Assembly: GCA_024137785.1 (NCBI GenBank)
Contig: JAHRHZ010000139.1
Location: forward strand, 38,843,447-38,907,446
DNA: 64,000 nt
DNA from: Ginglymostoma cirratum
Lineage: Eukaryota
Direction: 5' to 3'
Shown here: positions 3,001 to 59,325 of the stretch, piece after piece
Layout: each line of letters opens with the position of its first letter
Numbering within the stretch: position 1 is the first letter of the stretch
Made by a program: the position numbers and the translations under genes
Notes under the pieces: generated by a model
Told to the model about the DNA's origin: nothing
What the model saw: the letters and a program-made list of their open reading frames with translations, nothing else
Databases searched by the model: none

Positions 3001-3449
3001 GAGGAATCTTGTGTTTTATTCTCCCAGTAAGCTCCCAGGATCTCACATTTTGTTGCTTTAAAAATAAAAGTAACTGATTCCTACCCAGACTGTAACATGA
3101 ATTTGATGGTCTGGCCTGGTTATGTTACAATGTTTTATACGATGGCTGGTTGTTTACTTTGACTTTGGATTAAAAACAGACAATGATGGAAATATTAAGC
3201 AGGTCAGGTGGTGTATGTACAAACAGAAAGAGGTAACCTCTTATCAGAACTCTTGTCAGAACAAAATGTTAATCCTATTTCCCATGTCAGGGATGCTAGC
3301 TGACCTGCTAAGTGTTTTCACTACTTTCTGATTTTCAGATATCCAGAATCAGTGGGAATTCTATTCAATGAAGGATATACTTGCATTGGAGGTGGCACAG
3401 TGAAAATTCACTAAATTTGTCTATGGGATAAGGGTTTTATTTTATGTAA

Positions 3450-6720: not shown

Positions 6721-6854
6721 GATTTTCTGATGAAGGGTCTAGGCACAAAATGTCAAGCTTTCCTGCTCCTATGATGCTGCTTGGCCTGCTGTGTTCATCC
6801 AGCCCTTCACCTTGTTATCTTGGATTCTCCAGCATCTGCAGTTCCTATTATCTC
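6721..6854 (+). mobile_element. Solo Penelope pLTR 3' segment with decayed hammerhead motif, inserted in a CR1 fragment
   Basis: Homologous to 30030-30125. TSD cagcacaga at 6712-6720 and 6855-6863. Confidence 0.75.
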
Positions 6855-22400: not shown

Positions 22401-22614
22401 GACTTATTTCCCTAAAATCCTTCAGTTGACCTGCTGCCTGCCCGCAGAACTTGTAAACTTGTCTTCAAGACCATTCAATAGTCTTCTGGCAGCTATGCTA
22501 CAATCACCTCATGGTAGAATGTCCATTTCCAGCTAGCGCCTGCCACATGGTTGCTATTGCCCTATGTAGCTGCCACCCACTCTTTAAAAATAAACTTTTT
22601 TTTTTGTCCACCAC

Positions 22615-22731
22615 TTTCTCATCAGAGTACAATGTTGTGTAGTTAATGAATGCCAAGAGGCTCCTCTCATCAATTTTCAACTGGCCAGTAGCCAATTATG
22701 CAAGGTGATGCAGGAGAGAACCTAGTTCTCC
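22615..22731 (+). repeat. 117-bp direct repeat, copy 1
   Basis: Near-identical to 24232-24348, with only a handful of substitutions and no gaps. Confidence 0.9.
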
Positions 22732-23375: not shown

Positions 23376-24231
23376 TAATGCACCTACTTCTTTATTTATC
23401 ACTCAGTCAGTTTAGCACTACAGCATAAAATTGCATCAGGTTATAAACAAAGCTGCCTCAGACTTAAATACTGAATTACTTATATTGGTGAGAACTAGCT
23501 ACCCAGGCTTCATTCACTCAGCTGGGTCTGTCCTTCCCTGAACTCTGAGCTCAGTGTCCTGCTTCTGCGATGGCTGCTCCCAAATTATGCTGCTGATGCC
23601 TTCAAAACACTTATTTTAATATATTTTCTCTTGAATGTTCAATCCCACCCAGGACCCTTGTGATTCTAAGATCGTCCATCCAAGAGCGTATAGATGAGAT
23701 ACATCTATTTCATTGTCCTCCCTTCCACCTTTGATTATATAGCCTTGATAACCACAAAGGTGAAGCAACGTTTTAGTAGCCCTTATCACCAAATTCCTGC
23801 TTATCAAGCAGTGTCTTGTTTTGTCTTGCACAGTGGGTTATTGTTCCTGTGAAGTTGGCCACTTTTTCCCATCATTCTTGTAGAGACTTGGCTGTTAATT
23901 GTTCTGGCACAGTGTAGATATTAAGATGCAACCATACAGCTACAGTAGCCAGTTTACACATCACATGGAACATTGACTCTTTTTTTGTCCAAGGTTCCTG
24001 CCAGTTCTACTGAATACATCCAGTGTTTTCCATCATTATTTCAAATATTCAGCAACCACAGAATTTTGCTGTTGCACATTTGAGTTATATGTTCCAACTT
24101 ACCTCAGGGCAGCATATGTTTATTGTAGAGAAAAGAATGTCATTGCTTTTCCTTGAGAAAATCAGCCATAGATTGAAAACATATAACAATTCTTTCAAAT
24201 TTTCCACCAACTAGGCATTGTCAAAAAGCAT

Positions 24232-24348
24232 TTTCTCATCAGAGTAAAATGTTGTGTAGTTAATGAACACAAAGAGGCTCATCTCATCAATTTTCAACTG
24301 GCCAGTAGCCAATGATGCAAGGTGATGCAGGAGAGAACCTAGTTCTCC
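24232..24348 (+). repeat. 117-bp direct repeat, copy 2
   Basis: See 22615-22731. Confidence 0.9.
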
Positions 24349-27800: not shown

Positions 27801-29350
27801 CTCTTGTATTTTATTGTGCTCCTACATTTTCTTGTAAATTCATGAAGAAAATAAATTCATGCCTGTCTACTTTTTTAAGGACCGTAACTTTAGCATTTTG
27901 CAGAACCTGTCTCTTTTTTTAAAAAATGCACCTAGAAAGGACTAGCTGCCTGTAGCCAGTATTTAATTTTTGAACACACAAAGTCCCAAAAATAACAATA
28001 TGCTGTATATTCAGTTAATCATTTTCTTTGTTGGTATTGATTAGAGGAATAAATGATTCATTGGGTAGCTCAATTCCACTCTGAGAAGATATTTCTCCCT
28101 CCACAGATGTTGTCTCACCTATTCAATATATCTAGAATTTTCTGTTTTTATGTATGTTTCCAGCATTTACAGTATTTTGATGTAATTGTGCTGAAATAGT
28201 ATGTAATAATGGCTTAAATACATGATTCTTTGAGTAAGAATATGTCAGGCTGTTACTTGATTAGGCTTATCATACGCTTTCTCATATGCTTTATCATATT
28301 CTTATCATGTCTGGTGCCTTGTTTGATGCTGCAGGATTCTTCTGGGTTTACTTTTATAGTTTTTTGTGGTGCCTTGATGCAATTGAGTGCCTTGTTAAGT
28401 TATTACAGAGGGCAATTAAGTATCAACTATATTTCTACAGGTTGGGAGTCACCAGACTGGGTAACGATGGCAGATTCCCTTCTCTAAAGGATATTTGTGA
28501 ACTAGATGACTACTGTGATAATCCAGCAGTTTCTGCTTTACTATTATTATTTGATCCATATCTAGTTGACTAAATTAATTTTAATTCACCATCTACCATA
28601 ATAGGCTCTCAACTCAAGGACCATATGTGTGGATTACTAGTCAAATAACATGATCACTTTGTTCCACAGAGTCGTCTTTTCTGACAAAGTTGAATCAACA
28701 GAGTAAACCATATAGATGGTAGATACAACAAATGTATTGAACAATGATTTAGTATTATTTATAAACAGTTGTTTGTGCTTCAGTTGTGATGTTACATCTG
28801 TGGTAATGACATGTATGATTATTTTGCATGTGTAGAGTGTGAGGAAGCATAGAGAGGTTATAACAGAAGGAGGCCGTCATGTCCATACAGGCTTTCTGCA
28901 ACAGGCACTCAGCTAGTTCCACTTTCCTGTGCTTTCCCAATAGCATTATTTTTCACTTCACCTAATTATCCAATACGTTTTGAAGATCTGGATTGAATCT
29001 GCCTCCTCCACACTTTTTAGGCAGGGAGAACGGATCCTAATCACTTGCTTCATAAAAATATAAAACATAAATATGTATATCATCACATCACCTCTGCCTT
29101 TTATTTGCCCTTCCCCTTAAATCAATGGCCCCGAGTTTCTACCTTTCTGCCAATTGGTACAGTTTCTCCATATCTATGCCGTCCAGGTTCTTCATTATCT
29201 TAACCTTCCAATGAGAAATTCCACTATACGTATACTTCCATCAGAACAAAAAAAAACTATTTACCACCACTCTATTTGCTGTCACTCAACGAACTTCACA
29301 TCCATGCTGCCACTGTTGTGCAAGTGATTTTTAAATGAGCAGCTAAACCA

Positions 29351-30125
29351 CAGGAAGTGCTACACCTGCCCCCACACCTCCTCCCTCACCCCAATCCCAG
29401 GCCCCAAGAAGACTTTCCACATCAGGCAGATGTTCATCTGCCAATGTGGTATACTGCATCCGCTGTACCCGTTGTGGCTTCCTCTACATCGGGGAAACCA
29501 AGCGGAGGCTTGGGGATCGCTTTGCAGAACACCTGCGCTCAGTTCGCAACAAACAACTGCACCTCCCAGTCGCGAACCATTTCAACTCCCCCTCCCATTC
29601 CTCAGAGGACATGTCCATCCTGGGCCTCCTGCAAGGCCACAGTGATGCCACCCGAAGGCTGCAGGAACAGCAAATCATATTCAGCCTGGGAACCCTGCAG
29701 CCCAATGGCATCAATGTGGATTTCACAAGCTTCAAAATCTCCCCTCCCCCAACCGCATCCCAAAACCAGCCCAGCTCATCTCCACCTCCCTAACCTGTTT
29801 TTCCTCTCACCTCAAGCCCCACCCCCATCTCCTATCTACTAACATCATCCCGCCCCCTTGACCTGTCCGTCCTCCCTGGACTGACCTATCTCCTCCCTAC
29901 CCCCCTACCTACACTCACCTTTACTGGCTCCATCCTCTTCGACTTGTCTGCCTCCTCTCCACCTATCCTCTCCTCTATCCGCCTCCCCCTCTCTCCCTAT
30001 TTATTTCAGAACCCTCTTCCCCTCCCCCATTTCTGATGAAGAGTCTAGGCCCGAAACGTCAAGTTTTCCTGCTCCTATGATGCTGCTTGACCTGCTGTGT
30101 TCATCCAGTCCCATGCTTGTTATCT
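29351..30125 (+). mobile_element. Penelope-like retroelement 3' fragment (GIY-YIG + pLTR) with 11-bp TSD
   Basis: ORF 29446-29793 VYCIRCTRCGFLYIGETKRRLGDRFAEH is nearly identical to the 55 kb copy. TSD cagctaaacca at 29340-29350 and 30126-30136. Confidence 0.9.
30029..30064 (+). ncRNA. Minimal hammerhead ribozyme motif in a Penelope pLTR, one stem II mismatch
   Basis: attt CTGATGA a GAGT ctag GCCC GAAAC GTC aagt. Confidence 0.7.
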
Positions 30126-30487
30126 CAGCTAAACCATTTGCCTCATTTCAAGTACACGCTACCTTTTCCATTCTGGCTGCTTTGCTGTGTCCCTGGATTT
30201 GGTTTGTAAACTACATGTTCACACTATTCCACCATTTCACAAAATCACGATCTGCCTAGTCCAAAGCTTCAGTGCTAGCTGCAGCCATGCTCGTTCTGGC
30301 AACGCTAATCAGTGTTTGTTCTTGCCTGTGATATTCATGGGGGATTTTGTTTTGTATTGCTGTCCCTTTCAGGTACATCTTTACAACGGGCTAGTCTGGG
30401 GCAGCTCTTGTGACACAGTGATGGTGTCCCTACCTCTGGATCAAGAGGCCAGAGTTCAAGTCAAACCTGCTGTAGAATTTTACCCTC

Positions 30488-30668
30488 AAAACAAAAACAG
30501 GAATTGCTGGAATAGCCCAGCAGGTCTGACAGCATCTGTGTAGAGAAATCAGAGTTAACGTTTCGGGTCGAGTGACCCTTCCTCACGCCACCCGAAGCAT
30601 TAACTCAGTTCTGTCCACAGATGCCGCCAAAACTGCTGAGCTTTTCCAGCAATTTCTGTTTTTGTTTC
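30488..30668. mobile_element. Palindromic (fold-back) mini-element derived from a second Penelope-like pLTR family
   Basis: Arms 30488-30568 and 30590-30668 are imperfect reverse complements and homologous to 39880-39995. Hammerhead-like motif at the centre on the minus strand. Confidence 0.75.
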
Positions 30669-31087: not shown

Positions 31088-31826
31088 GTAATTGTGCTGC
31101 CTTTCCCACCGCCACTCCCTCCTCCACCGGGGAGGGTAGAAGGGTACGGGAGGGTTCAGTTTCCCGAAGAGAGGCTCCCTGAGGGCAGTCCCGATCTTTG
31201 CAGCGACTCTTCAGCGTTACTCTAAATGTATCCACTGTTCACACCGCAAGCCTTGTAATAAATCTGCGAGTTCTGTCTGCTCGCCTCCTCTTTGATTTTC
31301 CTTTATTCGGTTAGAAAACCATGTTCGACACTATTCGTTTGCGTAAAACTCCCCTCCCACCGGTTTGATTTATTTAAAAGAAACTTCGGATGTATATTTT
31401 TCTCTCCACACGCAACATTCAATTAAAATATTGCATCTTCACCGTGATAACGCGGGATCTCCCGAACCACAAAGCAGGCGGCAGCAGCGGCGGAAAATCT
31501 GCTGGCGTCTTTTATACAAAAAAAAAATCACTGATTTATTTTTAAAGTTTTTAAACGGTTTGCAACTCTCGCTGTTCTTTGAAAACGCCAACAAAATATT
31601 GCGACCGGTGAAAATCGCTCTGTTAAAACAGCCATACCCAACGCTTCTATTTAATTTAAATATGGTTGATGCGTTGCGTCCTTGTTTTTTTTAAAAAAAA
31701 AAGCATTGTAAAATGATTTCTGTCAACTGTTAACTTCTCCGGCATGGGTTCCAGATGTTGAGGGACTTGGTTGCATTTTTGCGATTAGATAAGCAGAGCA
31801 TGACCATGTTGAACCTCGTATTTCAG

Positions 31827-32769
31827 GGTCTATCATATCTTGGATACCAGATCGTTACCACCTGTCTCGATTATGCCAGTTGATATAGCCATGCGACTCT
31901 GTTTGGCTCATTCTCCACCTATGAGGAATTTCCTTGGCCCCTATGATCCTTACAGAGGGCTGAACATCACCAGTAGGCTGAAGCCCCTGCGGCCTTGCAT
32001 CAGTCTGAAAGGTGGAGCTGAATCGTGCAATGATGGCTGGGCTCAATCCAAAGGCAAAAGAAAGAAAACTGTGGCTTTTGCAGATGATAAAGGTTTTTCT
32101 CTCACTGCAGTTCACTTTTTCTCTGAATGTGAAGACTCGCTCGCTGAACTACAGTTTGACCTGACAGATCTCGACAACACAACGTGTGAACTGAAAGCAA
32201 ACGAAAGAAAGCCCCTGGTCCTGGATTTCTCTCCGCCATCTTCAGACTACATGGAATTCAGAAATCGCCTAAAGAAGAATTTTGTCTGCCTTGAAAATTG
32301 CACTGTGCAGGAGAAATTCATCACAGGCACTGTCGCAGTGAGGAATCTAAGTTACCATAAAGTAGTTCAAATCCGGATAACATTCGACACTTGGAAAAGT
32401 TATAAGGATGTGGACTGTACATTTCTAAACAATATTTATGGCTGTTCTGAAACAGACACATTTTCTTTCGCTATTGACCTGCCATCACCCATACCGCCAC
32501 AGGAAAAGATTGAGTTCTGCATCTCCTTTAAGTGTGGAGACCAAATCTATTGGGATAACAATGAGGGGAAGAATTACGGCATTGTTCACATCGATTGGAA
32601 ACCTGACAGGAATCCGGCCCCCACCCCCTTCAAGGATGAGGTGACCAAGACCCCTGTAAAGGTGCAGACGATTGAATGTGACCAGTATGGAAGCCCACGA
32701 TCATCGAGTGAGCTGTTTCCTGAATGGCAGAGCTGGGGAAAGATCGAGACGGCTCTGCCGTATTGGTGA
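31827..32769 (+). CDS. PPP1R3C: PPP1R3C coding exon 2: protein phosphatase 1 regulatory subunit 3C (PTG), CBM21 domain; spliced protein 318 aa
   Basis: Acceptor tttcag|G at 31826/31827, then an open frame VYHILDTRSLPP..MPVDIAMRLCLAHSPP. RVxF-type PP1 docking motif KKTVAFAD. CBM21 motifs GTVAVRNLSYHK, RITFDTWK, FSFAIDLP, WDNNEGKNY. C-terminal GSPR..LFPEWQSWG is typical of PPP1R3C. Confidence 0.95.
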
Positions 32770-39649: not shown

Positions 39650-40026
39650 GGCTGTGTTACCACATAGTCTACAATTACATACCACCTGTTGTTAGTCATT
39701 AACAGTCCCCATTAACAACCATTCACCCTCCTAGCCTGATCGTTTTCAACTCTGTCTGTCCAACTGCTCTTCTTCTGTCTCTTTAGGCTCTATCCTATCG
39801 TTTACTCCCTGTCCCATTTCCGCCTGCCCCCCCCCCACCATCTTTTCTGCATATAAACTGACATTTTCCTAGCCACCATCAGTTCTGAGGAAGGGTCACC
39901 AGACCTGAAATGTTTACACTTTTTTTTTGTTTTTTTTTCCTTCACAGGTGCTGCCAGACCTGCTGAGCTTTTCCAGAAACTTTGTTTTTGTTCCTGACTT
40001 ACAGCATCTGCAGTTCTTTTGGTTTA
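39650..40026 (+). mobile_element. Penelope-like pLTR (family 2) with hammerhead-like motif at 39881-39918
   Basis: Pyrimidine-rich tract, then agtt CTGAGGA a GGGTC acca GACCT GAAA TGTT, then the gctgccagacctgctgagcttttccag...cagcatctgcag tail. Confidence 0.7.
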
Positions 40027-40321
40027 TATGTCCTAAAATACACCTGGTTTTCCAAGACTCCTCTGTACCTTCTACCTGATTAGGATCTTCAAGCTAACCT
40101 GGTTGTAACATAGTGAGCCATAAGTAAACAGACCAAATACTGGGAATAAGTACAGTGGAAGAGAGTTCCAGTTAAAGGATGCAGAGCACATCATCTTCCT
40201 TACATAAACGCTGATACTTGGCAGAGAGTCATCCAAGATTCGATGTATTTTGGAGCAGGAAATGTGGGATAAAAAGAATCCTGGCGAGACTGAGCAGGTC
40301 TGAAAGCGTTTACAGTCATAC

Positions 40322-50165: not shown

Positions 50166-52451
50166 TCTTTTTGTAAGAATAGCTGTCAGTCATTCAGGGA
50201 ATTGCATCATGAAAATAAAGTGACTGCTTATAATAAAACAGCAAGTTATAACCTTTCAAAATGCCAGTCAGATCACACAGGCAGGTGATGACCTGATTTC
50301 TTTACCCACACAACTCGTAATAATAGCAGGTCTACTGTTCTATGGTTTCTTCTTTCCAAAAATATTTATTGAAGCCTTATAGTTTATTGAAGAAAATTTG
50401 GTTCAATATTGGTCAACCAATGCATTGCCTCGTGTTATGTTAAGTCATTAAATGCAAGCAAAGTTTGTGTTGTCTGGTCTATGTTGTATTAGACATTCTG
50501 AGTTTGGGACATGACCTGCAAAATGCAAAAACAAAGGGTTCTGTGCCACTGTTTTATAGAGGAGGAAAAAAACAGGTGCCATTTTATCCACCTAGCTAGG
50601 AGAGATATATACAGACATTTTGGGAGAGAGGAGTGGAGATGTATGGTCAAAAAGCACACTAGTACCGACCATTGCAAGTTCACTCATGAGTATAGCCTCT
50701 TGGATCTGGTTTTGCAGGGCTGCTGGCATCTGTGTAAACAACTTAGGCAAAACAAAAATTGGAAAAGAAAAATATCTTGTTTCCCACACTCTGAAACAAA
50801 TGGACTAGACTAATTTGATGAAATGGTATTTCAGACTTTCATTATGTTGTGTTTAATTTGGTTATTAATTATTTTTTGAGTTTCCAATTAAAATTCTTTT
50901 CTTTATTTACTTCACCACAGGAATAATGTTGCACCAATTATCATGTGTACACTCATTGTCAGCACTTTAATTACAGGGCTATTGTATGTGAACAATTATT
51001 CTCCCAAATAATAAATACTCTTAAGTATGGAAAATGCACACAGTATCACTGAATACAAAAGACCCTAATGAGTATGGTATTTTCTGGCCATGTCAAAGTT
51101 ATGAGTTGCTTTTTGGGATTCAGCAGATGTTGCAATCAATCCTCATTGCATAATCTGTACAACTGATTGGGATCAGATTTAGACCATGCTGAAATAGAAA
51201 CTTATTTTACAAAACATTCAGGGAATTCAAGGTTTCACTGCAGGGAAATTATTCTTAACTTTTAACATTGAGCATGGTCTGATTATAAAATACTAAAGCC
51301 AACAATTTACCGCTGGGGGAGAGGGATGTGAAGAGGTGGAATTTGAGGGCCGGGTAGGAGAAAAAAAATCAACTTAAATTTTGGCATTTTAACGTTGGCA
51401 CAAACTTAGTCTAGAATCGTGTTGTCCTTGAAATCTTTTACTTCATTTAATCTCTGCAATCAGACATGAAGTTTACAAACCCACAGGAAAAACCTGCATA
51501 TTGTTCAGTGAGATTCTGTTCAGAAGAATAATGCCCAAGTCCTTTTTCAGTTATATTAACAGTTATACTATTAGAGCTGATGACTACTGCACCTACTCTG
51601 TCAGTAAACACAGTATATTTGCTGGTTACTAAAATGCAGGAGCAGGTGTGAGGGGAATGATTTAGATCTGTGTAACTAGACCTGCACCATTTTTAATTCT
51701 AAACTCAGTGCAAGCTTTCTGGACTGATCTAAAGTGGTTTCCCTGAAGAGAGCCATAGGGCTGAATCTGACCTGCTCTTTCAGAATGGGCTAAAAGAGGA
51801 TGGCTAGCAAAATGACATGGGCAGTTGTTGGACGGTGTCTTCTTCCTGCTTTATGATTACGCTATAGAAAAAATGGGCCCAATTATCCATTTATGTATCT
51901 TGTACACTTAATTATCATTGATTGTAAGAATTGGCTGTACTGCCATAGGCAACGAGTGACCCTGTGTTAGCAATTTACCACTGGGTTGGTGCAGCATCTT
52001 ATGAGGATGCTATCAGATAACCCCTGACAGCCTCTGGCTGGCCCTCCTTTTTGGACACTCCTTGGCCTGTGGAGGGAAGCCCCTGCTCCAGCAATGGCAG
52101 CCCATTGTAATGGTACCACTTACCCTTGCTGGAAGAGTTCCTCATTGGCACCAGGTTCTTTAAGATCCCACTCGTTTGTCTTTTTCAGAGTGTATGTCTA
52201 TCACTAAGGTTTTAGAGTAGATCTGTAGCTCGGGTTGTGGGTGTTGAGGTTGGTTGGCTCGCCGAGCTGGTTTGTTGTTCCGTATGTCTATCAATGCGCC
52301 CATGTGCTCCAGATGCAGCCCCAGCAGTGCCCACTGTAACAGGAACACTGCTGAGCTGTCAGCTTTCTGATCTATGTGGCAACTCATGGGAACAGACCAT
52401 TATCCTGAAAAGAATGACAATCCAATGGTAGCCAGATAATTGGCAAAAAGC

Positions 52452-53755: not shown

Positions 53756-54970
53756 ATGTTTTAGTTGTAGATCTGTGCTATCTGCTGCTCACTTGCATTA
53801 TAAGCTTGGCATTGCTGGTAACAGTCAAATCCCTCACCTCTCTCCACATTTTTGTTCAGCCTCATTGAATGCTATATTGATTGATTGTCACGTGTACCGA
53901 GATACAGTGAAAGCTTTGTTTACGAGCGGTGCAGGCAGATCACAGCAAGCAAAGGATGTATAGATCAAAAAGACTTAGAGACATACAGGTTACATTGCAG
54001 GTTTTGTTATTTGAGACTAGAGTCCATTCAACAGTCTGATAACGGTTGGAAAGAAGCTGTTCCTGAACCTGCTTGTGCGTACGTTCGGGCTTCTGTATCT
54101 TCTGTCTGATGGAAGAGGTAGGAGATTATTATCAGGGTGCGATGGGTCTTTGATGATGTTGGCCACCTTTCCATGGCAGTGAGCCAAATAAATAGAGTCC
54201 ATGGATGGAAGGTTGGCTTCTGGGATGGTCTGGGCTGTGCACACCACCTCTGTAGTTTCTTACGGTCCTGGGCAGAGCAGTAGCCATGCAAGGCCATTAT
54301 GCAGCGGGACAGTACACTTTCAACGGTGCATCTGTGGAAGTTGGTGAGGGACCTTATGGACATGCCAAATTTCCTGAGCCGCCTGAGGAAGAAGAGGCAT
54401 TTTTGTGCCTTCTTGACTGTCACATTTATATGGGAGGTCCAGGACAAGTCGTCAGTTATCATGACTCCAAGGAACTTGATTCTTTGTTTCCATTGATGTA
54501 GATGGGGGCGTGTTCTCCTCCTTTCTTTCTGAAGTCGATGATCAGTTCTTTAGTTTTGACAACATTGAGAGAGAGGTTGTTTTCGTTGCACCATGTCACC
54601 AAGCCCTTTATCTCCCTTCTGTATTTTGACTCATTGTTAGACATCCATCACACTATGTTGATGTCGTCAACGAACGTGTAGGTGGCATTCATTCAGAATT
54701 TGATAATACAATTGTGGGTGTACAGGGAGTACAGTAGGGATCTGAGGATGCTTCCTGGTGGGGGGGGGGATGCGGCGAGCTCCAGTGTTGTGTTATTGTG
54801 GAGGAGGTGCAGTTACCTATCCTCACTGATTGCGGCCTAGGGGTCAGAAAACTGAAGATCCAGTTGCAGAGGGCAGAGCTGAGACCAAGGTCATGCAGTT
54901 TTGAGATCAGTTTGGAGGGGACAAAGGTGTTGAAGGCAGAGTTGTAGTCAACGAGCAGGAGTCTGATGTA

Positions 54971-56782
54971 ACAAGGCGTGGGGCTGGATGAACACAGCAG
55001 GCCAAGCAGCATCATAGGAGCAGGAAAACTTGACGTTTCGGGCCAAGACCCTTCATCAGAAATGGGGGAGGGGAAAAGGGTTCTGAAATAAATAGGGAGA
55101 GAGGGGGAGGCAGATGGTGGAGAGGAGGCAGACAAGTCGAAGAGATGGGGATGGAGCCAGTAAAGGTGGGTGTAGGTGGTGGGGTAGGGAGGAGATAGGT
55201 CAGTCCAGGGAGGACGGACAGGTCAAGGGGGCGGGATGAGGTTAGTAGATAGGAGATGGGGGTGGGGCTTGAGGTGGGAGGAGGGGATGGGTGAGAGGAA
55301 AAACAGGTTAGGGAGGTGGAGATGAGCTGGGCTGGTTTTGGGATGCGGTTGGGGGAGGGGAGATTTTGAAGCCTGTGAAATCCACATTGATGCCATTGGG
55401 CTGCAGGGTTCCCAGGCTGAATATGATTTGCTGTTCCTGCAGCCTTCGGGTGGCATCACTGTGGCATTGCAGGAGGCCCAGAATGGACATGTCGTCTGAG
55501 GAATGGGAGGGGGAGTTGAAATGGTTCGCGACTGGGAGGTGCAGTTGTTTGTTGCGAAGGTGTTCTGCAAAGCGGTCCCCAACGCTCCACTTGGTTTCCC
55601 CGATGTAGAGGAAGCCACAACGGGTACAGCGGATGCAGTATACCACATTGGCAGATGTGCAGGTGAACATCTGCCTGATGTGGAAAGTCTTCTTGGGGCC
55701 TGGGATTGGGGTGAGGGAGGAAGTGTGGGGGCAGGTGTAGCACTTCCTGCGGTCACAAGGAAAAGTGCCGGTGTGGTGGGGCTGGAGGGGAGTGTGGAGC
55801 GGACAAGGGAGTCGCGGAGGGAGTGGTCCCTCTGGAAGGCAGATAAAGGTGGGGAGGGAAAAATGTCTTTGGTGGTGGGGTCTGATTGCAGATGGCGGAA
55901 GTGTCGGAGGATGATGCATTGGATCCGGAGGTTGGTGGGGTGGTACGTGAGGATGAGGGGGATTCTTTTTTGGTTATTATTGCGGGGACGGGGTGTGAGG
56001 GATGTGTTCCGGGAAATGCGGGAGACATGGTCGAGGGTGTTCTCGACCACTGTGGGGGGGATGTTGCGGTCCTTGAAGAATGAGGACATTTGGGATGTAC
56101 GGGAGTGGAATGTCTCATCCTGGGAGCAGATGCGGCGGAGGCGAAGGAATTGGGAATAGGGGATGGCATTTTTGCAGGAAGGTGGGTGGGAGGAGGTGTA
56201 TTCCAGGTAGCTGTGGGAGTCAGTGGGCTTGAAATGGACATCGGTTTCTAGGTGGTTACCCGAGATGGAGACAGAGAGGTCCAGGAAGGAGAGAGAAGTG
56301 TCGGAGATGGTCCAGGTGAACTTCAGGTTGGGGTGGAAGGTGTTGGTGAAGTGGATGAACTGTTCGACCTCCTCGTGGGAGCACGAGGCGGCGCCGATGC
56401 AGTCATCAATGTAACGGAGGAAGAGGTGGGGTTTAGGGCCAGTGTAGTACGGAAGAGGGATTGTTCCACGTAACCTACAAAGAGGCAGGCATAGCTTGGG
56501 CCCATGTGGGTACCCATGGCCACCCCCTTTGTAGGAAGTGGGAGGAATTGAAAGAGAAGTTGTTGAGGGTGAGGACGAGTTCGGCTAAGCGGATGAGGGT
56601 GTCGGTGGAGGGGGCTTGGTCAGTTCTGCGGGACAGGAAGAAGCGGAGGGCCTTTAGGCCATCTGCATGGGGAATACAGGTGTCTAGGGACTGGACGTCC
56701 ATAGTAAAAATGAGGTGTTGGGGACCGGGGAATTGGAAGTTCTGGAGGAGGTGGAGGGCGTGGGTGGTGTCACGGATGTCAT
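54971..56782 (-). mobile_element. Penelope-like retroelement (RT + GIY-YIG endonuclease + pLTR), 5'-truncated and frameshifted, with 14-bp TSD
   Basis: RT motifs TMDVQSL, AMGTHMGPSYACLF and LRYIDD. GIY-YIG motif NVVYCIRC..C..LYIGET..R..EH..GIN. TSD aggagtctgatgta at 54957-54970 and 56783-56796. Confidence 0.9.
55028..55063 (-). ncRNA. Minimal type-I hammerhead ribozyme motif in a Penelope pLTR, intact core
   Basis: Minus strand reads attt CTGATGA a GGGT cttg GCCC GAAAC GTC aagt: full core, 4-bp stem II, palindromic ACGT stem III, GUC cleavage triplet and attt/aagt stem I. Confidence 0.8.
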
Positions 56783-57691
56783 AGGAGTCTGATGTAGGTG
56801 TCTTTGTTATCCAGATGTTCCAAGGATGAGGGCAGGGCTGGGGATATGGCATCCTCTGTGGACCTGTTATGTCGGTAGGCGTAATGTAGGGGATCGAGGT
56901 AGGCTGGAGACTGGAGTTGATGTGGGCTATGATCAGCCTTTCGAAGCACTTCATGATTATTGAAGTCAGAGCTATTGGACGGTAGTCATTAGGGTACACT
57001 GCATGTGTTTTCTTGGGTATGGGGATGATGGTGGTCTTGAAGCAGACGGGCACTTCAGCTTGTAGGAGGGAGAGATTGAAGTTGTCATTGATAATCTCCA
57101 CCAGTTGGCCCGCACAGGATCTGAGTGCTCAGCCGAGGACACCATTTGAGCCCATCACTTTCCTTGGGTTGACTCCCAGGAAGACAGATCCGACGTCTGA
57201 AGCACTGATAGAGGGAACAGGTGTGTCTGGGGCTGTCGGGGAAGGTGTCACTACGCCGGTGGTATTCTGCTCAAACCAAGCATAGAAAGTATTGAGCATG
57301 TCAGCGAGGGATGTGTCTTTATCTTCTATCTTACATTTTCATTTTATATCCTGTAATGTCAACTAGGTCTTGCCATAGATGGATGTGGGTATCTATCAAA
57401 GAAAAATAATGCACAGATCAACATTCAGTTCCACCTCTTTGCAGAATAGCAACAGCATCTTAAAATAACCATCCAATGTACTGCATTTCCCAAACTGGAA
57501 GCATTATGTAATCATGCATCATATCAGGGAGTTACGTTACAATGATATTAGCCCATTAATTTTTTTTATGACACATGCCTTAAACATGTCAGTTGAATGT
57601 TACAGCTTAAATGTATAATTGATTGCTCAATTAGTATGCAGATTTAGAAACAAAATAGCTGTATGGTTGTTTCAGTGCCTTGGCACTAAGG

Positions 57692-58093
57692 TTGCAGACT
57701 TGCTCGCCGAGCCCGTGTGTTTGATTGCAGACATTTCATCACCCTGCTTGGTAACATTGTCAGTGCGCCTCTGGTGAAGCATTGGTGTTCCACGTTGCTT
57801 GTTATTTATATGCCTCGGTTGATATTACTTCCGGTTTTGTTCGTCAGTGGTTTGTATATTGGGTCAAGTTCAATACAAACCACTGAAGAACGAAACCAGA
57901 AATAATACCGACCACCCCAGCAAACTAAGGCACATAAATAACAAGCAGGACGGAACACCAATGCTTCACTGGACATGCACTGACGATGTTACCTAGCAGG
58001 GTGATGAAATGTCTGCGTTCAAACCCACTGGCTCCGTGAGCAAGTCTGCAATATCATCCACAACCCGAGCTAGAAATCTTCTCAAAAACTTTA
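57692..58093. mobile_element. Long inverted-repeat element (third Penelope-like pLTR family), hammerhead motif in each arm
   Basis: 57692-57861 pairs with 57871-58051. The right arm has tgca CTGACGA t GTTACC tagcag GGTGAT GAAA TGTC tgcg at 57976-58017. A related terminus lies in reverse at ~52205-52300. Confidence 0.75.
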
Positions 58094-58495
58094 AATACAT
58101 TGTATTGTAAGGACTGTTAGAAATGCAGAACAAATTTATCAAGTGATTATGTGCATAGTGGAACCTATGTGCACATACTCCATGCCTTGTCAAACAGACT
58201 GACAGATTGGACTGAAATCCCACCGCTAGCCTGTGTGCTAATTTTACCAACATAGTCTAGCATTGAAGCTATTGTTGCAGTTTCTGTTCTGGGCTGTGTT
58301 GGGGGAAGGGGAATTGATGCCTATACCTGCAGCTGGTAGATAACTAATTAAGCCTTTTAATGGGCCTACTAAGGCCACTGTGTGCAATTTTCCAATTCTA
58401 CAACTCCTTCACCTGCCCCACACACCACAAAAGGATGAATCCCAGCAGATGAAGGAGGTCTCTTGATGAAATGAGGGAGGCAGTTGGAATACCTT

Positions 58496-58840
58496 CACAG
58501 AATCCCTACAGTGCAGAAAGAGGCCACTTGGCCCATCGAGTCTGCACCAATTGTCTGAAATACAACCAACCCAGATTCATCCTATCCTCGTAACACTGCA
58601 TGTCCCACGACTAATCCATCTAGCCTGCACACCACTGGACACTACGGAGCAATTAACCATGGCCGATTCACCTAACCTGCACATCTTTGGACTATGGGAG
58701 AACACTGAGCACCTGGACGAAACACATGCAGACATGTGGAGAACATCCAAACTCCACAGAGGGAGTCAGCTGAGACCGAATTGAACCTGGGATGCTGCTG
58801 CAGTGAGGCAGCAGTATTAAACACTGTGCCGCCCTGCCAC
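58496..58840 (-). mobile_element. HE1/V-SINE-like SINE
   Basis: Reverse complement homolog of 23096-23375. Confidence 0.8.
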
Positions 58841-59104
58841 ATGTTGTGCGACACTACCATCACAATGAATAGGATGGACTTCAAACAGATCTAGCCACTC
58901 AAAACTAAATATCCATGAGTAGAATGGAATCAGCAGTAGAATTAAATTCAATCTGTAACCTCATGGTCTAGCATGCCATCATATTTAAGAAACCTGCAAT
59001 CAATACTGATTCAAAGAAGGATGGAGGTGGGCACACCATGAGCAGTGTTAGACATACCTATGAAGTATGAACTTGGTGAAGCAACATTAAACTGATGTAC
59101 TTAC

Positions 59105-59325
59105 ATAAAAGCAAAATGCTGCAGATGCTGGAAATCTGAAACAAACAGACAATGCTGGAGAAACTCAGCAGGTCTGGCAGCACCCGTGGAGGTAGAAACA
59201 GTTAACGTTTTGTGTCTAGTATGACTTCTTCAGAATGTCTGAAGGAGAGCCATACCAGACTCAAAACTCTTTTGGTTTGTGACATGTTGCTGATGCAGAA
59301 TGGCTGCTGCATTTCTCTACCTTTT
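59105..59325. mobile_element. Degenerate palindromic Penelope-pLTR-derived element
   Basis: Left arm aaatgctgcagatgctgg...cagcaggtctggcagca...gttaacgtttt. Central inverted junction ttcaga-atg-tctgaa, with decayed CTGAAGA..AAAACGTT motifs facing outward. Confidence 0.6.

What the first reader, a model, noticed from the sequence alone, without database searches (positions are those of the whole stretch)
57692..58093. ~360-bp fold-back element with a hammerhead ribozyme motif in each arm
Seen: two ~170-180 bp arms fold back around a ~9-nt loop (57862-57870). The right arm carries tgca-CTGACGA-t-GTTACC/GGTGAT-GAAA-TGTC-tgcg, with pairable stems I and II. The left arm carries the same motif on the opposite strand (57726-57766, G8 lost, consistent with CpG decay). 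Known: Penelope-like elements carry minimal type-I hammerheads in their pLTRs and can leave inverted pLTRs. Inference: this is a non-coding ribozyme-bearing palindrome, so transcription in either direction meets a ribozyme motif and a long dsRNA hairpin. It may be a retrozyme/MITE-like unit or an endo-siRNA source in sharks.
Basis: partly seen in the sequence, partly recalled or inferred. Interest (0 to 1): 0.75.

Follow-up and report, generated by a model that had tools for sequence, protein, structure and literature searches.

The report
Mirror-image Penelope retroelement insertion stump
This 400-base palindrome is two back-to-back ends of a highly repeated element, likely a Penelope-type jumping gene, each carrying a worn hammerhead ribozyme motif, and it is likely an ordinary dead by-product of one old insertion rather than a working ribozyme or small-RNA gene.

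Summary
The palindrome (57689-58095; arms 142/169 identical) and both hammerhead motifs are real. Each arm is the 3' end of a highly repeated family laid out like a Penelope/Poseidon pseudo-LTR: the last codons of an ORF, a minimal type-I hammerhead with the next ORF's ATG at stem II, and a 39-41-nt tail on the right arm only. Head-to-head truncated copies, a one-sided tail and paired opposite-strand hammerheads are all described in print. The 'loop' is left-arm family sequence: other copies run through it without folding back. The insertion sits at the same site in two other organisms, and its centre diverges like its flanks. In either read-through direction the antisense arm is made first and is predicted to mask the ribozyme; the left copy has also lost G8. 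No full RT-endonuclease ORF was retrieved, and cleavage, small RNAs and editing were not testable. The scan reported the same kind of structure earlier in other genomes. Verdict: ordinary, a new example of a known kind.

The parts
57689..57874 (-). Left arm: 5'-truncated, tail-less 3' end of the repeat family, with a 13-nt deletion near 57820
   Evidence: family loose ends at 57689 and 57874
57727..57766 (-). Left minimal type-I hammerhead motif, G8>A, stem I 3 bp, stem II 6 bp; would cut after 57730
57858..57874 (.). Centre: extra left-arm family sequence (codons read IELDPI on the - strand); 4-5-bp stem with 9-nt loop, 2-nt overlap with the right arm
57873..58095 (+). Right arm: 5'-truncated 3' end of the same family, with tail
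57874..57996 (+). Relic of the last 40 codons of the family ORF (P0001); the stop lies in hammerhead stem II/loop II
   Evidence: relatives P0002, P0003, P0004, P0007 at 62-78%
57975..58018 (+). Right minimal type-I hammerhead motif: core intact, extra U after A9, G10.1-U11.1 pair, UG at 15.2-16.2; would cut after 58013
57986..58095 (+). Relic of the ORF start (ATG at A9-U-G10.1), 36 codons with a stop at codon 18 where the left arm has Arg
58055..58095 (+). 39-41-nt tail, on the right arm only; family 3' end at 58093-58095
   Evidence: loose ends; mirror of 57689 is 58054; a copy at 52205 ends at the same point
52205..52275 (-). Separate short 5'-truncated copy of a related subfamily, ending at the same tail end (start approximate)

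Best explanation
The palindrome is two head-to-head, 5'-truncated 3' ends of one highly repeated family, likely a Penelope/Poseidon-group retroelement, and was likely made in one old insertion event and left inert. Shown: the anatomy, the repeat family, the ends, and the shared filled site in three organisms. Inferred mechanism: the element's endonuclease nicked both strands of an AT-rich target, and each nick primed reverse transcription at one of the two internal start sites (+69 without tail, about +110 with tail, counted from the ATG). Both cDNAs stopped after about 185-220 nt and were joined at the short ATTG/CAAT complementarity at the centre. I put this route at about 55%, and fold-back of one cDNA with later loss of one tail at about 40%. 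The hammerheads are passengers of the pLTR. Any read-through RNA is predicted to form one long hairpin that masks them.
For: (1) Geometry like the Anolis Poseidon element: ATG at the start of stem II; cut site at +28 here and 26 nt after the start codon there; right end +108-110 here and RT start +111-118 there; tail 39-41 nt here and 30-40 there. That protein cuts and extends both strands and starts at two sites. (2) Inverted 5'-truncated copy with a one-sided tail, head-to-head with a palindrome at the junction, and paired minimal hammerheads 100-700 bp apart on opposite strands are described; here the cores are 217 bp apart. (3) 9,487 (X4) and 8,858 (X16) contigs were laid, with summed depth about 5,500-172,000 on the arms against 11-27 on the unique flanks; right ends cluster at 58093-58095 with mixed AT-rich flanks. 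(4) At 57874, 10 contigs of X1 and 3 of X18 run on unfolded; their loose end reads by eye as HSNQNSINKH, the residues that precede the centre's codons in protein P0008. (5) The pieces crossing the centre in X4 and X16 have depth 7.5 and 14.9 and about 6% differences, like the flanks. (6) Two same-strand left-to-right joints lie at other points (57729>58053, 57748>57965; 2 of 15 rows shown out of 175). (7) Centre against flank divergence: 11/168 vs 51/857 (p 0.73) and 10/163 vs 35/857 (p 0.29); 13 of 18 arm transitions are in possible CpG context; wobble against A-C mismatches 10:8. (8) A second head-to-head palindrome from another hammerhead-bearing repeat lies at 30489-30667.
Against: No full RT plus GIY-YIG ORF was linked to the family. 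Pfam found no element domain in P0001, P0002 or P0004, profile comparison with the window's other GIY-YIG ORFs was blank, and the Atlas GIY-YIG hits scored only 0.84-0.86, a lead. Only 32 of 20,413 pieces were shown, and contigs break at palindromes, so a rare recurring junction is not excluded. The constraint tests have little power. No target duplication and no empty site were found. The joining route cannot be read from one old locus.
Confidence: 0.9

Rival explanations
1. A non-autonomous palindromic unit (MITE-like or fold-back, or retrozyme-like) that moves as a whole and keeps its centre.
For: The arms are very deep in DNA runs, including the bin over the centre. Non-autonomous PLE derivatives with hammerheads exist in vertebrates.
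Against: Family copies run through the centre unfolded, crossing pieces have single-copy depth, and other joints differ. The ends are uneven and no target duplication over 2 nt was found. Retrozymes are head-to-tail tandems.
Confidence: 0.04
2. A PLE by-product that the host now uses: a transcribed 170-bp hairpin giving siRNAs against the family, or an A-to-I editing substrate.
For: Very stable predicted hairpin. The insertion is kept in three organisms. PLE copies give antisense small RNAs in a rotifer.
Against: The centre diverges like the flanks and mismatches show no strand bias. The nearest host coding ORF seen is 25 kb away; 0 of 65 further ORFs scanned hit Pfam, though short exons would be missed.
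Confidence: 0.05
3. An active self-cleaving ribozyme locus: the right hammerhead cuts transcripts that start inside the element.
For: The right core is intact and its stems form alone (central stem I pairs 0.83-0.96, stem II 0.96-0.99).
Against: Masked in read-through RNA, and weak even in the right arm alone (stem I about 0.07). Minimal hammerheads showed no cleavage as monomers, and the Anolis one needed the protein. Helix III is no longer palindromic. The left copy lacks G8; G8C killed the Anolis ribozyme.
Confidence: 0.03
4. Two independent insertions that landed back to back, or an assembly artefact.
For: Arms differ at 27 of 169 columns.
Against: The arms abut with a 2-nt overlap and near-matching truncation points. 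The junction is crossed by contigs from two other organisms, and one from the closest-matching run reaches 57877.
Confidence: 0.02

Closest known systems
Insertion units of endonuclease-positive Penelope-like elements with an inverted 5'-truncated copy and a tail (Craig et al. 2021, PMC8557442; Arkhipova et al. 2013, PMC3846280)
   Same: Head-to-head inverted truncated copy, small palindrome at the junction, 30-40-nt tail at one end, pLTR holding the first codons of the ORF.
   Different: Both copies are cut down to about 200 nt, so no RT or endonuclease is left; no 8-10-bp target duplication is visible.
Poseidon element of Anolis carolinensis, PAc (Frangieh et al. 2024, PMC11167929)
   Same: ATG at the start of hammerhead stem II, cut site 25-26 nt after the start codon, 3' end about +110, tail between two start sites.
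   Different: Different sequence; here the upstream ORF's end runs into the hammerhead; this copy is decayed.
Minimal type-I hammerheads of metazoan PLEs (Cervera and De la Pena 2014, PMC4209133)
   Same: Core letters, extra nucleotide after A9, long stem II, short stem I, no helix III loop; pairs on opposite strands 100-700 bp apart. By eye the closest of the 56 rows of Fig. S3 is Clonorchis sinensis (1), Cercyon type, 38 of 48 letters.
   Different: G10.1-U11.1 instead of G-C, UG instead of a palindromic pair at 15.2-16.2, and G8>A in the left copy.
Non-LTR retrozymes (Li et al. 2026, bioRxiv 10.64898/2026.07.22.740005)
   Same: PLE-derived, type-I hammerhead, no intact ORF.
   Different: Retrozymes are head-to-tail tandems with same-strand ribozymes; this is a head-to-head pair.

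Membership tests
EN+ Penelope-like element insertion (Penelope/Poseidon group) | pLTR with a minimal type-I hammerhead | tested here: met
EN+ Penelope-like element insertion (Penelope/Poseidon group) | ORF start at stem II, cut site about 26 nt after it, 3' end about +110 | tested here: met
   ATG 57986, cut +28, end +108-110
EN+ Penelope-like element insertion (Penelope/Poseidon group) | 30-40-nt tail, often at one end only | tested here: met
   39-41 nt on the right arm only
EN+ Penelope-like element insertion (Penelope/Poseidon group) | Inverted 5'-truncated copy, head-to-head | tested here: met
EN+ Penelope-like element insertion (Penelope/Poseidon group) | Dispersed repeat with varied, AT-rich flanks | tested here: met
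   depth and loose ends with agreement 0.35-0.43 at 58093-58095
EN+ Penelope-like element insertion (Penelope/Poseidon group) | Family ORF with RT and C-terminal GIY-YIG endonuclease | tested here: inconclusive
   Only ORF-end fragments retrieved; Atlas lead 0.84-0.86; Pfam and profile comparison blank
EN+ Penelope-like element insertion (Penelope/Poseidon group) | Clade placement by RT tree; no Cys-rich RT-EN linker | not testable with these tools
   No RT of this family in hand; no genome held
EN+ Penelope-like element insertion (Penelope/Poseidon group) | Target-site duplication (present in some copies, absent in others) | tested here: inconclusive
   At most 2 nt; old insertion, no empty site seen
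Minimal type-I hammerhead (Cervera and De la Pena) | Core CUGANGA, GAAA, UH with stems I and II: right arm | tested here: met
Minimal type-I hammerhead (Cervera and De la Pena) | Same core: left arm | tested here: not met
   G8>A
Minimal type-I hammerhead (Cervera and De la Pena) | G10.1-C11.1 pair and palindromic 15.2-16.2 | tested here: not met
   G-U and UG in both arms; G-U also occurs in a published PLE motif
Minimal type-I hammerhead (Cervera and De la Pena) | Self-cleavage, as a dimer | not testable with these tools
   needs an assay
Rfam hammerhead families | Covariance-model match | tested here: not met
   one search also gave no match for the clear minimal motif at 55059, so the models miss this variant
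Non-LTR retrozyme | Head-to-tail tandem units, each with a hammerhead | tested here: not met
MITE / fold-back unit | Same centre in many copies | tested here: not met
   Run-through loose ends, single-copy crossing depth, other joints; limit: 32 of 20,413 pieces shown
MITE / fold-back unit | Flush terminal inverted repeats with a target duplication | tested here: not met
   Tail on one side only; duplication at most 2 nt
Hairpin endo-siRNA locus | Transcription across both arms, small RNAs, editing | not testable with these tools
   Only contigs could be laid
Hairpin endo-siRNA locus | Constraint on the hairpin | tested here: inconclusive
   No excess conservation (p 0.73, 0.29) and no wobble bias (10:8), low power

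The most novel reading that the evidence does not exclude
Head-to-head by-products of this very abundant family act as built-in silencers: wherever host read-through crosses one, it gives a 170-bp hairpin that masks the ribozyme and is cut into small RNAs against the element's pLTR and ORF ends, and this locus, kept in three organisms, is one such source.
Probability: 0.06. Interest if true: 0.55.

Novelty: new member of a known kind. Interest (0 to 1): 0.15.

Why it matters
As a single locus it matters little: it is one more fossil of a described insertion pattern. As a class it is useful, because how PLEs make inverted copies and one-sided tails is still open. With a family this abundant, young palindromes could separate the two routes: arms copied from one cDNA must be identical at birth, while arms primed on two RNAs may carry different source variants. 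If such hairpins proved to be small-RNA sources, they would be a self-limiting feature of PLE insertion.

Tried and rejected
Own genome: none held, so no genome-wide BLAST. Rfam: no hammerhead match; below-threshold miRNA hits reflect the hairpin only. Hammerhead pattern in metagenome contigs: 0 matches. Relatives of the ORF end in metagenome and viral contigs: 439 and 139 pattern hits, none confirmed. Longer proteins: none for P0001, 0 of 4 candidates for P0004, 3 of 133 for alignment A3, all gene models fused to host domains. Two of the 6 hits (P0005, P0006) are chance matches of repeats and were dropped. Cluster membership of the protein hits could not be looked up. Expression: no RNA holder listed, which is no evidence either way; X18, only guessed to be RNA, has one exact contig on the left flank (57353-57544) and no cover on the right flank. 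The sigma-70 scan is irrelevant to a eukaryote. Link to the neighbouring element at 54963-56584: rejected, as the arms do not match its pLTR or its endonuclease. Of the 12 joints shown in table 5c (47 in all), 10 link left to right arm away from the mirror point, but their orientation is not printed and they could be partial tandems, so only the 2 rows marked as skips in table 5 were counted. Two paper searches for a shark PLE/siRNA link or a flatworm-shark transfer listed nothing on point (listings only). Earlier scan notes by sequence and by relatives: none.

Full report
1. Observation. The fold-back is real. Arms 57692-57820/57923-58051 (84%) and 57817-57857/57873-57913 (85%) were found. 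One global alignment gives 142 of 169 identical columns and a 13-nt gap in the left arm. The RNA fold is -245 kcal/mol, with 0 of 100 shuffles as good. Rfam gave no hammerhead match; one search also missed the clear minimal motif at 55059, so this is a limit of the models. The host is a vertebrate by its CpG depletion and a CBM_21 glycogen-targeting ORF.

2. The arms belong to a large repeat family. No genome is held, so I laid contigs of 4 of the 24 listed public runs on 57300-58500 at 80% likeness. Runs X4 and X16 laid 9,487 and 8,858 contigs. Summed depth was about 5,500-172,000 on the arms and 11-27 on the unique flanks; the tool warns that this is no copy number, and I use only the contrast. 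Loose ends pile up at 58093-58095 with low-agreement AT-rich flanks, which marks the family's 3' end. A separate short copy at about 52205-52275 ends at the same point. The left arm stops at 57689, whose mirror is 58054; many family contigs continue there into the 39-41 nt that only the right arm has.

3. The arms are pLTR ends. The right arm holds 40 open codons from 57874 that stop inside the hammerhead. They match 4 eukaryotic-looking gene models at 62-78% (4 of 6 hits), and two more came from a later search. Five of these extend the frame upstream through the codons at the centre. I recall this stretch as the end of a PLE GIY-YIG endonuclease, but the tools gave only a lead (Atlas 0.84-0.86) and blanks. 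A second frame starts at 57986, where A9-U-G10.1 of the hammerhead is the ATG. In the Anolis Poseidon element the ORF also starts at stem II, the cut lies 26 nt after the start codon, reverse transcription starts at +111-118, and the 30-40-bp tail lies between two start sites (PMC11167929; I read parts 1-3 of 4). Here the cut would be at +28, the ends are at +69 and +108-110, and the tail is 39-41 nt.

4. The layout is in print. Craig et al. describe an inverted 5'-truncated copy next to the 5' end and a tail often on one end only (PMC8557442, passages). Arkhipova et al. describe head-to-head repeats with palindromes at the junction and propose self-priming (PMC3846280, passages). Cervera and De la Pena report pairs of minimal hammerheads 100-700 bp apart on opposite strands, and no cleavage by a monomer (PMC4209133, parts 1-2 of 4 and supplement parts 1-2 of 3). 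The cores here are 217 bp apart. Retrozymes are head-to-tail tandems (bioRxiv 10.64898/2026.07.22.740005, parts 1-2 of 5). Fig. S2 of the Anolis paper is an image and its sequence file could not be read, so the tail positions rest on the main text.

5. The junction looks like a one-off. At 57874, 10 contigs of X1 and 3 of X18 run on without folding back (agreement 0.83, 0.88). Their loose end reads by eye as HSNQNSINKH, matching P0008. So the 'loop' is left-arm sequence. Of 32 pieces shown (20,413 in all), 3 cross the centre: X4 record 27 (depth 7.5, 10 differences in 163, 51 letters past 57874), X16 record 11 (depth 14.9, 11 in 168, 27 letters past) and X1 record 5 (depth 2, 3 letters past). 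These are flank-level depths. Two same-strand left-to-right joints lie elsewhere (57729>58053 in X4 and X16; 57748>57965 in X1), among 15 rows shown of 175. Against this: contigs break at palindromes and most pieces were not shown, so a rare recurring centre is not excluded; the X1 joint has depth 37 against 2-5 on its flank, so some other junction may be multi-copy. The window holds a second head-to-head palindrome from another hammerhead-bearing repeat at 30489-30667, and a weaker candidate at 3172-3335.

6. Age and constraint. Contigs of organisms B and C join both flanks to the arms (X4 records 25, 32; X16 records 9, 16), so the insertion is older than their split from the window's organism; flanks differ by 3-6%. 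The centre differs no less than the flanks (11/168 vs 51/857, p 0.73; 10/163 vs 35/857, p 0.29). Of 27 arm differences 18 are transitions, 13 of them in possible CpG context, and they split 10:8 between wobble pairs and A-C mismatches on the + strand. This fits neutral decay, at low power. No target duplication over 2 nt was found.

7. Ribozyme. Alone, each motif forms its stems (stem II 0.95-0.99). In a 601-nt read-through RNA of either strand the antisense arm precedes the motif, and stem probabilities fall below 1e-17 (equilibrium prediction). The left copy lacks G8; G8C abolished the Anolis ribozyme. Both copies have UG at 15.2-16.2, which would weaken the dimer helix. Cleavage was not testable.

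8. Mechanism. Shown: anatomy, ends, family membership of the centre, shared filled site. From print: the Anolis protein cuts and extends both strands and starts at two internal sites. Inferred: two nicks primed two cDNAs, one from each start site, which stopped early and joined at the centre. The left cDNA's 3' end can pair over 4-5 nt with the sequence 9 nt upstream, while the copied register needs a 2-nt overlap or a 2-nt slip. The same complementarity would serve a fold-back of one cDNA, but the arm that carries the loop has no tail, so that route needs a further trimming step. I give 55% to two primings and 40% to fold-back.

9. Earlier scan notes. My reading was entered before I saw any. 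Two notes on other genomes reach the same reading. They are unchecked and add no weight; one gave me the Arkhipova 2013 paper.

10. Verdict. It works like, and very likely is, a truncated head-to-head PLE insertion; the one untested defining feature is the family's RT-endonuclease ORF. Novelty: new member of a known kind. Interest 0.15.

Noticed in passing
window 30489-30667: Second head-to-head palindrome (arms about 82% alike) made of 3' ends of another hammerhead-bearing repeat, cut inside the motif; single copies at about 39886-40031 and 59103-59235.
   Followed up: partly
window 3172-3335: Older, weaker palindrome (36-nt arms, 75%) that by eye resembles the same second repeat; BLAST did not link it.
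   Followed up: partly
window 54963-56784 (-) and 29347-30128 (+): Broken Penelope-like copies with GIY-YIG (PF01541), a CRCTRC motif and a minimal hammerhead (55059 and 30033); likely Neptune-type (label recalled). A third 3' end lies at 6724-6820. The longer copy sits inside a LINE relic.
   Followed up: partly
window 57976-58023: By eye the motif matches the liver fluke Clonorchis sinensis (1) Cercyon-type motif at 38 of 48 letters, more than any vertebrate row among the 56 of Cervera's Fig. S3. Could be shared clade, double coding constraint, or transfer between flatworms and fish; needs an RT tree.
   Followed up: partly
window 31813-32769 (+): 318-codon ORF with CBM_21 (PF03370); likely the main exon of a PPP1R3B/C-type glycogen-targeting subunit (name recalled).
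   Followed up: partly
proteins P0003, P0007, P0008, P0009: Automatic gene models fuse this repeat's ORF end to host domains (PDZ, HEAT and others): probably annotation errors from repeat-derived false exons.
   Followed up: no
run X1, joint 57748>57965: A different left-to-right junction with depth 37 against 2-5 on the flank; some junctions of the family may be multi-copy.
   Followed up: no
window 22612-22731 and 24229-24348: 120-bp direct repeat, 94% identical, 1.6 kb apart; not examined.
   Followed up: no
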